A stretch of 4,102 nucleotides of DNA from a virus (lineage: Duplodnaviria; Heunggongvirae; Uroviricota; Caudoviricetes), in IMG/VR virus record IMGVR_UViG_2703718820_000006. One strand, given 5' to 3'. Below are positions 1 through 3,000 of the stretch, one piece after another (position 1 is the stretch's first letter; every line of letters starts with the position of its first letter). The position numbers are program-made.

Positions 1-3000
1 GACATATCTGACGAACCTGTATTTCAAAATTAAAGAAGACCGGCGTAAGGCGGCGCGGGGAGAGTAGACGATGAATAAACAATACGAACTGGTTGTTAAA
101 GGGATAAATATTTACCCGGATAAGATTACTGGGTATACGTCACTGTTGTTGCCAAATGTGGTGATTGATCTTGATCGTGTTGAAGGTGCCCCGCTGGAGT
201 TTTACGAAGCTGAGGCGAAAAAGAAGGCGAAGCAGTTTTTCATGGATATTGCTGCCGGGTTATGTGAAGGGAACGAACCGTTGCCGGAAAAGCGCCTCTG
301 TTCAGAAGAGCGGTATACCATACAAATTAACAATGCATATAACACGATACAGTCAGAAAAAGATGATATCGAATCACGCATTGAAAAACTGGAGAACAGC
401 GTCGTTGAACTGAATAAAAAACTGTCGGTGCAGATCCCTTCCGAAGGTGAAAAAAAACGCCGTGATGAGCAGTTCGCGGCGTTTTACGATTATTGCCGGA
501 AAGTGATGAGCAGAAATCTCGCAGAGTGTTTCCGTATTCAAAAAAACAGAGAGCGCTCTGCAAATAGTGAGATTCTGGATAATTTTTTAAAGGGGACGCA
601 TCTCGCCAGTGATTGTTTCATTGCTCATTCTTTTGGTGGCTTTCATGAGGCCATCAAACATGATGTTGAGAGAAGTCCAGGTATCCTCTGTTCCATTCCC
701 GTAAGCATCGAAATAGACACAAATACGATAACCGGTGAACTCGTTACCGCCGGAGTCGGTATATTCCGTCATGAGGGGAACGATGCCAAAGGTTCCTTTA
801 CAAAAATCGGGCCGTTCTTTCTGAAGGTAGAGCGATAGTTTGTTAAGTACCCATCCGACAGCTCGCTCATTTTGGTTTATTTTCGTATCGCGAAACAAAA
901 ATTCGAAGCGGCCAGATGACGCATGGGTGCAACCAAATACCGGGGCGTATTCATCAACCTTTGGTGTTCCTGAAAACATGCAGTCCGTGCTCTCGAATGC
1001 AGATGAATTGCTGTTGATCCACTTAACAAAAGAAAAAAAGGTCTGAATCGCTTGTCTGTCTGAATATTCAACAAAATCCTCAAGGTGTGTCTCGATCAGT
1101 TCCGGGTGTTTACGAAAGTCATAATATTGACCGGGACGATATTTATGAGTGGTTGTTTTATCCCATGGTTGTGCTCTGCGTCCCTGTAAACGGAGGTCTG
1201 CCGCTGGATAGATAAGCATAAGTAATCTCCTGGTGGAATGTAATCCACGATCATCCGGGGAAATTAAGAACCCGCCAGTGCCCACCACTGGTGGGGTGAA
1301 GGCTTAACATATCCAGGGATTCGGAACCGATAAATCCTGATAAATATCCATGAACACCAAAATCAAATACGGCCTGTCGGCTGCCGTTCTGGCGCTGATT
1401 GCCGCAGGGGCGCCTGCGCCTGATATTCTCGACCAGTTTCTGGATGAAAAAGAAGGTAACTACACCACGGCATACCGTGATGGTGCGGGTATCTGGACCA
1501 TCTGCCGGGGTGCCATCATGGTGGATGGTAAGCCTGTGATTCCTGGCATGAAGCTGTCGAAGGAAAAATGCGACCGGGTTAACGCTATCGAACGGGATAA
1601 GGCGCTGGCATGGGTGGCGAAAAACATCAGAGTGCCACTGACCGAACCTCAGAAAGCGGGGATCGCGTCATTCTGCCCTTACAACATTGGCCCCGGAAAG
1701 TGTTTCAGCTCAACGTTTTACCGGAAACTGAACGCCGGAGACCGTAAAGGCGCATGTGCTGAAATTCGTCGCTGGATATATGACGGTGGTCAGGACTGCC
1801 GTATCCGCTCAAATAATTGCTACGGTCAGGTATCCCGTCGCGACCAGGAGAGTGCGCTGGCATGCTGGGGTATCGACAGGTAGCAGAATATTTTGCTGAA
1901 AAATGACGTTTGCTCACGCGGACGGATAACACGAAATCCTGCGAACTGGCAAAATGCAAGTGAATAAAGTCAGGAAGATTGTTTCACGCAGAGGCACCGT
2001 AATGGTGTCTTTGTCATTTCTGCGCTTCGCACAAGCGTAAATAAACCAAAGAACCTTTCAGGATGAGCCCTGGTGGATAACCGGCAGTGGTCTGGTTAAC
2101 CCTCTTTGGGCTGGTTATTCCTGTGCGCAGGGTTCATCACTAAAAGGAAATAACCGATGAATATGATAACCGTGCCGTTTCACGGCGATTCTCTTTATGT
2201 GGTTAACCATAACGGCGAACCATACGTTCCCAAACCTGTCGTTGCGGGGATGGGGCTGGCCTGGCAATCACAGTTGGCTAAGTTAAGACAGCGTTTTGCG
2301 TCAACTATAACGGAAATCGTTATGGTTGCTGAGGACGGGAAACGACGCAATATGGTGTCCCTGCCACTTCGAAAACTTGCAGGCTGGTTACAAACCATCA
2401 ATCCCAACAAAGTAAAACCCGGAATCCGCGACAAGGTTATCCAGTATCAGGAAGAGTGCGACGATGTTCTCTATGAATACTGGACGAAGGGTTTTGTCGT
2501 TAATCCTCGTCAAATGAGCGTGATGGAAGAACTCAACCAGGCATGCGCTGACATGAAACGGGATAAAAACATTGCCAGTCTGTTTGGTACAGGGTTAAAC
2601 GAATGGAAACTGGTTAAAGCCGCGCATGTATCAAAAATTCGCACGTTGATAAACGAAGCGAATCTGCTGATTGGTTTTGTCCTGGCTGATACAGGCAAAG
2701 GAAAAATCACAAAGACGGATTGATGGAGTGGCGTCTAATGATATCAGGCAAACTCATAATGCTGGCGAAGGGCCTTTGTGTAATCGTCGGGATTTCATTT
2801 TCACTAATGCTGGTTGTTCTTTTTCCTTCCATAGCCTGGATGGCGTTGAGTTCGGCAGGGCTGGTGGGGTGACAGTGACTGATGACGACAATTTATTTAA
2901 ACAGATGAGTACTGAATTTATTCGGGCAACGGCATTTGCCATTCGCATTGTGGCAATTGCGGTTCTAATCCGGGAAATCCGCTGGTGGTGAAATGAATAA

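What the first reader, a model, noticed from the sequence alone, without database searches (positions are those of the whole stretch)
2723..2872. Untracked small hydrophobic ORF translationally coupled to the antirepressor-like gene
A 49-aa ORF (44 aa from the better-supported ATG at 2738, which has GGAG 9 nt upstream) begins in the TGATG overlap with the upstream stop codon and encodes an almost entirely hydrophobic peptide. Its size and composition resemble small membrane toxins and holin/antiholin-like lysis modulators. Its position in a split lysis cassette makes a membrane-acting role plausible. It fell below the ORF-track length threshold, so it would be missed by default annotation. A different-frame ORF (2671-2991) overlaps it and looks less coding-like.
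Basis: seen in the sequence. Interest (0 to 1): 0.45.

Follow-up and report, generated by a model that had tools for sequence, protein, structure and literature searches.

The report
Conserved tiny membrane protein, lysis cassette
The small hydrophobic ORF is a real, conserved 44-residue single-helix membrane protein gene that sits between the endolysin and spanin genes of Shiga-toxin-type E. coli prophages; databases already list it as a hypothetical protein, and nobody has tested what it does.

Summary
ORF 2723/2738-2872, the TGATG overlap with the Ant-like gene's stop, GGAG 9 nt before ATG 2738 and the extreme hydrophobicity are all there. No ORF in 500 shuffles was as hydrophobic.

It is a genuine gene. 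The frame is open and of conserved length in 18 DNA alleles, up to 34% divergent. dN/dS is about 0.25-0.46 in this frame only. Mosaic recombination junctions fall at its start and stop.

The conserved start is ATG 2738, giving 44 aa. Many relatives have an in-frame stop plus their own Shine-Dalgarno site upstream.

AlphaFold2 gives one helix. The two lysines lie at the N-terminus and an S-F-S motif is invariant.

It is not untracked. It is PHROG 4906 (unknown function), PGAP calls it "hypothetical protein", and it occurs in 1696 of 5426 complete E. coli genomes and 276 phage records. The 933W reference record leaves it unannotated.

It is not tied to the antirepressor. It also occurs after a different Ant, or with no Ant. 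It usually abuts or overlaps the Rz start. In this window a small-ORF/Dam methylase module is inserted right after its stop.

It has no holin, releasin, toxin or defence family match. The function is unknown. My best guess is an accessory lysis modulator, held with modest confidence.

The parts
2738..2872 (+). Small ORF 'A': 44-aa single-pass membrane protein, MISGKLIMLAKGLCVIVGISFSLMLVVLFPSIAWMALSSAGLVG. This is the conserved form of the finding.
   Evidence: Full-length match to phrog_4906, E 9e-26. 18 alleles of the same length, with dN/dS 0.24-0.46 in this frame. Class-2 homology begins at 2736 and ends at 2872. AlphaFold2 gives a helix over residues 2-39, pLDDT 87.
2723..2737 (+). Optional 5-codon N-terminal extension (MEWRL) from the ATG that overlaps the Ant stop (TGATG). 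More likely it is an untranslated leader carrying the Shine-Dalgarno site GGAG at 2725-2728.
   Evidence: It varies as MEWRL, MEWWL, MERWL and MGWL, including a codon indel. It is interrupted by TAG in L083. It is absent, with an in-frame TAA or TAG upstream, in class-2, ST131 and EcPF40 loci, which have their own SD site.
2157..2723 (+). Ant-like protein (P22_AR_N + ORF11CD3 domains), the upstream neighbour in this window.
   Evidence: Pfam PF10547 at 1e-41 and PF10549 at 4.7e-7. phrog_524.
2869..2991 (+). Second tiny hydrophobic ORF: 40 aa from GTG 2869, which overlaps A's stop as GTGA, or 28 aa from ATG 2905. It is a relic or short form of the B/C family.
   Evidence: phrog_3246 at 7e-8 and phrog_4493. 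PGAP calls the IBS28 copy a partial hypothetical protein. The homologue in L037 is MSAELIRAMAFAIRIVAIAVLVWAIRWW.
2993..3760 (+). D12-class N6-adenine DNA methyltransferase (Dam-like). Together with 2873-2991 it forms a module inserted between A and Rz.
   Evidence: PF02086 at 4.4e-27. PADLOC MTase_II at 3.8e-92. The module is absent from Stx phages, where Rz follows A directly.
3769..4102 (+). Rz i-spanin, cut by the window end. The embedded Rz1 o-spanin starts at 4008 or 4023.
   Evidence: PF03245 at 2.1e-27 and phrog_13. The Rz1 frame is read from the sequence and from the L020 ORF 3352-3537.
1350..1883 (+). Lysozyme/endolysin with a weakly hydrophobic, Gly/Ala-rich N-terminus (SAR type).
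   Evidence: PF00959 and phrog_7. The SAR assignment for Stx-phage endolysins comes from PMC8136144.
2..67 (+). 3' end of the S21-like class II holin (pinholin) gene: ...TYLTNLYFKIKEDRRKAARGE*
   Evidence: Translation of the sequence compared with the L020 holin ORF 681-1001. PGAP calls the homologue 'class II holin family protein'.

Best explanation
Window 2738-2872 encodes a genuine 44-residue protein that forms one transmembrane helix in the inner membrane. The N-terminus, with Lys5 and Lys11, would face the cytoplasm. The uncharged C-terminal end would lie at or just beyond the periplasmic face.

It is transcribed as part of the phage late (lysis) operon. It is translated from ATG 2738 using GGAG 2725-2728, probably helped by ribosomes terminating at the Ant stop 15 nt upstream. 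Its own stop in turn overlaps or abuts the start of the next gene. That gene is Rz in most phages; here it is a B/C-type mini-ORF, because a Dam module was inserted.

I infer, without direct evidence, that it has no enzymatic or pore-forming domain and acts through helix-helix contacts. The invariant mid-membrane S-F-S motif is a candidate contact surface. The likely partners are other membrane proteins of the cassette: the S21-type pinholin, the SAR anchor of the endolysin, or the Rz anchor. On this view it is a dispensable accessory that tunes the timing or efficiency of lysis. This is analogous in position to P2 LysA, which lies between endolysin and spanin.

Shown: it is coding, conserved, a membrane helix, a discrete mosaic module, resident in the lysis cassette, and starts at 2738. 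Inferred: topology, late co-expression, partner binding, and an effect on lysis.

I put the gene-level claim at about 0.9 and the lysis-modulator claim at about 0.35-0.4.
For: Coding:
- 0 of 500 shuffles reach its hydrophobicity.
- 18 DNA alleles and 16 protein variants have the same length and no stops, at up to 43 differences in 126 nt.
- dN/dS is 0.24-0.46 with Fisher p of 0.0006-0.03 in this frame, against about 0.5-2.9 in the other two forward frames.
- Homology blocks begin at window 2736 and end at 2872.
- phiP27-type homology resumes 4 nt after the stop in L041.

Start codon:
- In-frame stops plus separate SD sites lie upstream in class-2 and ST131 loci and in L083.

Structure:
- AlphaFold2 predicts a single helix over residues 2-39, pLDDT 87.
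- The best TM segment has negative Hessa free energy (-1.0 for the window allele, -3.5 to -4.8 for the P27 and ST131 alleles), and the only charges are K5 and K11.
- S20-F21-S22, W34 and G41 are conserved even in the most divergent members.

Lysis context:
- 44 of 46 places lie between a lysozyme and Rz.
- Rz follows directly in 36 of them, with a GTGA overlap or a 7-12 nt gap.
- The upstream neighbour varies: two unrelated Ant types, mini-ORF B, or mini-ORF D.
- No promoter-like or terminator-like site lies next to it on either strand (nearest candidates 2170-2187 and 3306-3320), consistent with co-transcription.
- P2 has a precedent: a non-essential membrane protein (LysA, an antiholin) between the endolysin and spanin genes (PMC3091744).
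Against: I found no experimental data of any kind.

The gene is dispensable for this type of lysis system. K-12 Qin has rrrQ overlapping rzpQ with nothing between them.

It often travels with Ant genes as a moron-like block. In one phiP27-like phage, the Ant-D-A block sits after a cytoplasmic GH108 endolysin, beside class-I-type holins and with no Rz adjacent. It is therefore not tied to pinholin, SAR endolysin or Rz.

It lacks holin hallmarks and has no family match.

One allele pair (window versus L043) has dN/dS of 1.9. Purifying selection is only moderate overall.

The conserved 3' end CTGGTGGGGTGA could be constrained as the ribosome-binding and start region of Rz rather than as protein.
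Confidence: 0.4

Rival explanations
1. It is a moron-type membrane peptide unrelated to lysis. On this view it is a small inner-membrane protein that modulates a host membrane protein or blocks superinfecting phage DNA entry. It merely occupies a permissive insertion slot downstream of the endolysin gene, together with Ant, Dam and the other mini-ORFs.
For: The endolysin-to-Rz gap is clearly an insertion hot spot. It holds two unrelated Ant genes, a Dam methylase, and mini-ORFs B, C and D in varying combinations. The Ant-D-A block is also inserted into a phiP27-like cassette of different composition. The gene is absent from otherwise similar cassettes such as Qin.
Against: No promoter-like site is available for expression in the lysogen, which exclusion functions usually need. 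It has no PADLOC hit. In the loci examined it is confined to the slot downstream of the endolysin gene and tightly coupled to the genes around it.
Confidence: 0.27
2. It is mainly a translational-coupling adaptor. After Ant or other modules broke the ancestral overlap between the endolysin and Rz genes, a short upstream ORF ending on the Rz start delivers ribosomes to Rz. The peptide itself would be incidental.
For: Its stop overlaps a GTG (GTGA) or lies 7-12 nt before the Rz ATG in 36 of 46 places. The 3' end CTGGTGGGGTGA is nearly invariant and resembles a Shine-Dalgarno site. In Qin the endolysin and Rz genes overlap directly.
Against: Synonymous changes are in excess across the whole ORF, not only at the 3' end. 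The hydrophobic character, the length and the central SFS motif are all kept. The ORF persists where the next gene is not Rz: the window itself, L036, L037, L041 and L042. Coupling would not require 44 strongly hydrophobic codons.
Confidence: 0.13
3. It is a membrane-damaging toxin or minimal holin, acting like a type I toxin peptide or a pore former that depolarises the membrane.
For: Its size (44 aa), single TM helix and extreme hydrophobicity resemble type I toxins such as Hok/TisB-class peptides (my own knowledge). It lies in a lysis cassette.
Against: It has no charged C-terminal tail. It has no Pfam holin or toxin hit. There is no Rfam antisense RNA and no promoter-like site on either strand nearby. 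A dedicated S21-like pinholin is already present upstream. It is carried in up to 11 copies per genome without an evident antitoxin.
Confidence: 0.1
4. It is a chance or decaying ORF that is not translated and has no function.
For: It is short. The antisense frame and one other frame are also largely open. Rare frameshifted variants exist among database clusters, for example P0034, P0038, P0041 and P0047.
Against: Hydrophobicity is beyond all shuffles. There is a frame-specific excess of synonymous changes. Length is conserved across 34% divergence. Mosaic junctions fall exactly at its ends. An SD site is retained in every context.
Confidence: 0.07

Closest known systems
PHROG phrog_4906, equivalent to RefSeq hypothetical proteins such as WP_032151794.1, WP_000455406.1, WP_001280932.1 and YP_006906870.1 (ORF53 of phage P13374)
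   Same: Full-length sequence family match (49/49 profile positions, E 9e-26). Same position in E. coli and Shigella lambdoid (Stx) prophages.
   Different: Nothing of substance. The window allele is one more variant, 86-100% identical to deposited proteins. The family has no assigned function.
P2 LysA (separately encoded antiholin between endolysin K and spanins LysB/LysC)
   Same: A non-essential membrane protein encoded between the endolysin and spanin genes of a lysis cassette (PMC3091744).
   Different: LysA has four predicted TM domains. This protein has one helix and 44 aa. Sequence similarity was not tested. P2 uses a class I holin, not a pinholin.
Mu gp25 releasin (DUF2730)
   Same: A small membrane-anchored accessory protein encoded within a few genes of a SAR endolysin (PMC9239132).
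   Different: gp25 is 99 aa, N-out/C-in, with a 73-aa acidic cytoplasmic domain. This ORF has no soluble domain, probably the opposite orientation, and no DUF2730 hit.
Type I toxin peptides (Hok family and similar)
   Same: Under 60 aa, one hydrophobic helix, prophage-borne. hokD is present in Qin.
   Different: No antisense RNA, no promoter of its own and no polar C-terminal domain. It is embedded in a translationally coupled late operon.
S21-type pinholin/antiholin (S21 68/71)
   Same: Same cassette. Helix-helix interactions through small or polar residues are the working principle of pinholins (my own knowledge).
   Different: The pinholin has two TM domains and a charged C-terminus, and is encoded upstream. 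There is no sequence relationship.

Membership tests
PHROG 4906 (uncharacterised phage protein family) | Significant full-length match to the family HMM | tested here: met
   E 9e-26, residues 1-49 on profile positions 1-49 of 49.
PHROG 4906 (uncharacterised phage protein family) | Same genomic setting as other members (late/lysis region of E. coli lambdoid phages) | tested here: met
   44 of 46 places lie between lysozyme and Rz. All 276 phage records are Escherichia or Shigella phages.
Holin (canonical) | At least one transmembrane domain | tested here: met
   One helix over residues 2-39 and a strongly hydrophobic segment around residues 12-30.
Holin (canonical) | Hydrophilic, highly charged C-terminal domain | tested here: not met
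   The C-terminus SIAWMALSSAGLVG has no charged residue. The only charges are K5 and K11.
Holin (canonical) | Match to a described holin family | tested here: not met
   No Pfam or NCBIfam hit. The PHROG category is unknown.
Holin (canonical) | Lethal hole formation and endolysin release on expression | not testable with these tools
   Needs inducible expression with and without the endolysin.
Separately encoded antiholin (P2 LysA type) | Membrane protein gene within the lysis cassette, between endolysin and spanin | tested here: met
   Synteny.
Separately encoded antiholin (P2 LysA type) | Multi-pass topology (four TM domains in LysA) | tested here: not met
   Single helix, 44 aa. LysA topology is taken from PMC3091744.
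Separately encoded antiholin (P2 LysA type) | Loss causes premature lysis | not testable with these tools
   Needs phage genetics.
Releasin (Mu gp25, DUF2730) | DUF2730 domain; N-out/C-in anchor with a large cytoplasmic domain | tested here: not met
   No Pfam hit. There is no soluble domain, and the lysines lie N-terminal to the helix.
Type I toxin-antitoxin | Small hydrophobic toxic peptide | tested here: inconclusive
   Size and hydrophobicity fit. Toxicity was not testable.
Type I toxin-antitoxin | Own promoter and overlapping or adjacent antisense RNA | tested here: not met
   No promoter-like site on either strand near 2600-3000. No Rfam match in the window at E up to 1. A consensus scan is weak evidence.
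Anti-phage defence proteins (PADLOC) | Match to a defence-system model | tested here: not met
   0 families.

The most novel reading that the evidence does not exclude
The 44-aa peptide, perhaps together with the other mini-TM ORFs B, C and D of the same gap, is a new class of lysis regulator. It would be a bare transmembrane helix that binds the pinholin, the SAR anchor of the endolysin or the Rz anchor through its invariant S-F-S face. In that way it would set the timing of lysis, and hence of Shiga toxin and phage release, in about a third of E. coli genomes.
Probability: 0.25. Interest if true: 0.6.

Novelty: already known. Interest (0 to 1): 0.3.

Why it matters
The ORF itself is already catalogued, so the scan adds no new entity. 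What remains open is its function. A conserved single-helix peptide is wired by translational coupling into the lysis cassette of Stx phages. It is present in 31% of complete E. coli genomes, in up to 11 copies, and has never been studied.

If it modulates pinholin, SAR-endolysin or spanin action, it would affect the timing of phage and Shiga toxin release. It would also add a minimal regulator type to the lysis paradigm.

There are practical consequences too. The start codon should be annotated at the position equivalent to 2738, giving 43-44 aa rather than 49-50 aa. Reference records such as 933W lack the gene altogether.

Tried and rejected
- Pfam, NCBIfam and PADLOC scans of the peptide gave no hits.
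- A profile HMM search of 1.84 billion representatives found only 28 hits. All are the same narrow family or fragments and frameshift variants of it, with no remote relatives.
- Two scans of GTDB species representatives found only one true hit: a 328-bp Stx-phage-like contig in a Xanthomonas pisi assembly, probably contamination. The other 53 pattern matches were chance.
- K-12 Qin was checked for a homologue that might have ribosome-profiling evidence. There is none.
- Seven literature searches, including peptide strings and accession numbers, found nothing on this ORF (one search was for P2 LysA, and one search failed on term length).
- Rfam and the promoter/terminator scan gave no antisense RNA or promoter. 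Type I toxin-antitoxin was therefore rejected as the leading idea.
- Releasin membership was rejected on size, topology and domain.
- I tested whether the ORF derives from a duplicated Rz anchor. Only a 19-residue, post-hoc pairwise similarity to the type-2 Rz TM domain appeared (BLASTP E 0.002 for a single comparison; nucleotide z 6.5 for one of 25 pairs). This is kept as a lead only.
- Openness of alternative frames does not discriminate on its own. The frame of ORF 2671-2991 is simply the upstream extension of the Rz (or B/C) frame and is open in 11 of 18 alleles. The -2 frame is open in 17 of 18.
- No fold search was run, because a single helix gives no informative matches.
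Full report
**What the window is.** The 4.1-kb window is the late/lysis region of an E. coli lambdoid (Stx-phage-like) prophage. Its features, in order, are:
- the last 22 codons of an S21-type class II holin (2-67);
- a DUF1327/YdfR-like gene (from 71);
- an opposite-strand 210-aa orphan ORF (587-1219);
- a lysozyme with a weakly hydrophobic N-terminus (1350-1883);
- an Ant-like protein with P22_AR_N and ORF11CD3 domains (2157-2723);
- the small ORF of the finding;
- a second tiny hydrophobic ORF (2869/2905-2991);
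- a D12-class adenine methyltransferase (2993-3760);
- Rz with embedded Rz1 (3769 onwards).

The closest complete genome, E. coli IBS28 at 98.5% identity, has the same order. A comparative study of 279 Stx phages describes these cassettes as pinholin plus SAR endolysin plus Rz/Rz1, and does not mention the small ORF (PMC8136144).

**Checking the observation.** Every sequence statement holds. The Ant stop is TGA 2721-2723, sharing its A with ATG 2723. GGAG lies at 2725-2728, 9 nt before ATG 2738. The stop is TGA 2870-2872. This gives 49 or 44 aa. The peptide has GRAVY 1.81. The next most hydrophobic ATG-ORF of at least 40 aa in the window scores 0.35, and none of 500 shuffles reached 1.81. Length alone would not be notable.

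**Is it a gene?** I collected 46 copies from IMG/VR contigs, phage records, E. coli genomes and assemblies, giving 18 distinct DNA alleles and 16 protein variants.
- All alleles keep the frame open and the same length, up to 43 differences in 126 nt.
- Nei-Gojobori dN/dS for divergent pairs is 0.24-0.46 in this frame (Fisher p 0.0006-0.03). The two other forward frames give about 0.5-2.9.
- One pair (window versus L043) is an exception at 1.9.
- Replacements are almost all hydrophobic-for-hydrophobic. S20-F21-S22, W34 and G41 survive even in the most divergent members.

Mosaic junctions also coincide with the ORF ends. One class of loci shares homology with the window only from 2736 to 2872. 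Stx-phage homology ends at 2872. In a phiP27-like phage, homology to phiP27 resumes 4 nt after the stop. I conclude with about 0.9 confidence that it is a real protein-coding gene.

**Start codon.** In loci where the upstream gene is a KilAC-type Ant plus another mini-ORF, or where there is no Ant at all, an in-frame TAA or TAG lies just upstream. A separate Shine-Dalgarno site (AAGGGGT, AAGAGGT or GGGAGG) precedes the ATG equivalent to 2738. One 933W-type allele reads ATG GAG TAG upstream of that ATG. The five extra codons vary non-conservatively (R/W), include a codon indel, and always keep a purine-rich GGAG-like run. The conserved product is therefore 43-44 aa. PGAP's 49-aa call and P27's 50-aa call in Ant-linked loci are probably too long.

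**What the protein looks like.** AlphaFold2, run with the family alignment, predicts one continuous helix over residues 2-39 (mean pLDDT 87). The best TM segment has negative insertion free energy on the Hessa scale (-1.0 for the window allele, -3.5 to -4.8 for the P27 and ST131 alleles). The only charged residues are K5 and K11, N-terminal to the hydrophobic core. By the positive-inside rule this implies N-in/C-out topology, which is an inference. There is no soluble domain, no lipobox and no charged C-terminal tail.

**Is it untracked?** No. It matches phrog_4906 over its full length (E 9e-26, function unknown). PGAP annotates it as a hypothetical protein, for example WP_032151794.1 in IBS28, and it is ORF53 in phage P13374. 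BLAST finds it in 1696 of 5426 complete E. coli genomes, in up to 11 copies. 'Hypothetical protein' lay under the match in all 40 sampled rows. It is also in 276 phage records, all Escherichia or Shigella. The 933W RefSeq record, however, leaves the 154-nt Ant-Rz gap empty.

The family is narrow. There were only 28 hits among 1.84 billion cluster representatives, all of them the same family or its fragments. Nothing convincing turned up in GTDB species representatives. It has no Pfam, NCBIfam or PADLOC match. I found no paper that mentions it.

**Context and coupling.** The gene is not a satellite of the antirepressor. The upstream neighbour can be the P22_AR_N Ant (TGATG overlap), or a KilAC Ant followed by mini-ORF D (with ATGA coupling), or mini-ORF B, or D alone. 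ST131, EcPF40 and other prophages have no Ant at all.

Downstream, Rz follows directly in 36 of 46 places. The stop then overlaps a GTG (GTGA) or lies 7-12 nt before the Rz ATG. In the window and eight other places, extra modules are inserted right after the stop: C plus Dam, or B with or without C. In the window the next ORF again starts with GTG in a GTGA overlap (2869). In two copies of a phiP27-like phage, the Ant-D-A block sits after a cytoplasmic GH108 endolysin and before a small lipoprotein gene, with no Rz adjacent.

K-12 Qin, which has a similar cassette, has rrrQ overlapping rzpQ and no such ORF. The gene is therefore a dispensable, independently mobile module, chained by translational coupling into the late operon downstream of the endolysin. 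No promoter-like site, terminator-like site or Rfam RNA lies beside it.

**Mechanism.** Nothing tests function directly, so this is inference. I favour an accessory lysis modulator. On this model a bare TM helix is co-expressed with the cassette and binds one of its membrane proteins (pinholin, SAR anchor or Rz anchor) through the conserved mid-membrane S-F-S face. The positional precedent is P2 LysA, a non-essential membrane antiholin encoded between endolysin and spanins (PMC3091744). Confidence in this model is about 0.35-0.4. The rivals are:
- a moron peptide unrelated to lysis (about 0.27), supported by the hot-spot nature of the gap and by the phiP27-like context;
- a coupling adaptor for Rz translation (about 0.13), supported by the invariant CTGGTGGGGTGA end, but not by selection along the whole peptide or by its persistence where Rz is not the next gene;
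- a toxin or minimal holin (about 0.1), against which stand the missing charged tail, the missing antisense RNA and the presence of a dedicated pinholin;
- a non-functional ORF (about 0.07).

It is not a releasin. Mu gp25 is a 99-aa N-out/C-in DUF2730 protein with a large cytoplasmic domain (PMC9239132).

**The overlapping ORF 2671-2991.** Over the region that overlaps A, its frame has stops in 7 of 18 alleles and dN/dS near 1. That frame is simply the one into which the GTGA overlap leads. Its last 28-40 codons, however, match small-membrane-protein families phrog_3246 and phrog_4493. These correspond to mini-ORF C of ST131 prophages.

**Verdict.** The feature is real and correctly described. 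Its interpretation as a membrane-acting lysis-cassette peptide is plausible but unproven. As an entity it is already known: a catalogued hypothetical protein family. Interest is modest. The open question is functional, and standard phage genetics could answer it.

Noticed in passing
window 2869-2991; L037 3096-3349; L038 2804-2986; L020 2858-2995: The endolysin-to-Rz gap of these prophages carries a mosaic set of tiny hydrophobic ORFs, not just one. B is about 40-60 aa (phrog_1115/4493/3246). C is 28 aa and looks paralogous to B (RALAFAIKWVAVG versus RAMAFAIRIVAIA). D is about 31 aa (phrog_6632). They are chained to Ant, to A and to Rz by ATGA/GTGA overlaps. The window has a B-N-terminus/C fusion or relic.
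   Followed up: partly
window 2873-3768: A module of the small ORF plus an intact Dam-like methyltransferase is inserted exactly between the stop of the small ORF and the Rz start. GGTGA is present at both junctions (2868-2872 and 3771-3775). In E. coli IBS28 the same methylase is a frameshifted pseudogene.
   Followed up: partly
window 587-1219 (- strand) and 71-838 (+ strand): A 210-aa opposite-strand ORF with no Pfam, PHROG, NCBIfam or PADLOC hit sits between the YdfR-like gene and the lysozyme. Its only relatives are a few E. coli and Salmonella hypothetical proteins (53-100% identity). The + strand ORF 71-838 is YdfR/DUF1327-like only for residues 1-160 and then reads on into the antisense of this insert.
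   Followed up: partly
L041 3141-3322: In a phiP27-like phage, the gene after the small ORF encodes a 60-aa lipoprotein (lipobox LLVGC, three Cys in a 30-residue mature part). No Rz/Rz1 pair is called in that locus between the endolysin and the terminase genes. It is possibly an unrecognised outer-membrane lysis component.
   Followed up: no
L083 (NZ_JPLE01000251.1, 328 bp): A contig in a Xanthomonas pisi DSM 18956 assembly carries the Ant 3' end, the small ORF and the Rz 5' end, with a small-ORF protein identical to the P27 allele (L003). This is almost certainly E. coli Stx-phage contamination. Its allele carries a TAG in the 5-codon upstream extension.
   Followed up: partly
L047 3424-3578 (933W, NC_000924.1 27423-27577): The RefSeq record of the prototype Stx2 phage 933W has no feature in the 154-nt Ant-Rz gap, although the 44-aa ORF is intact there (L047 3436-3570).
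   Followed up: yes
window 2770-2820 versus the Rz type-2 N-terminus (L003 3784-, L037 3351-): There is a short similarity between the TM core of the small ORF and the signal-anchor of type-2 Rz proteins: ILCVIVGISFLVMLVA versus VLCVVIIVMLVA, and GTCATGCTGGTTGCC versus GTCATGCTGGTAGCC. It is too short to establish common origin.
   Followed up: partly
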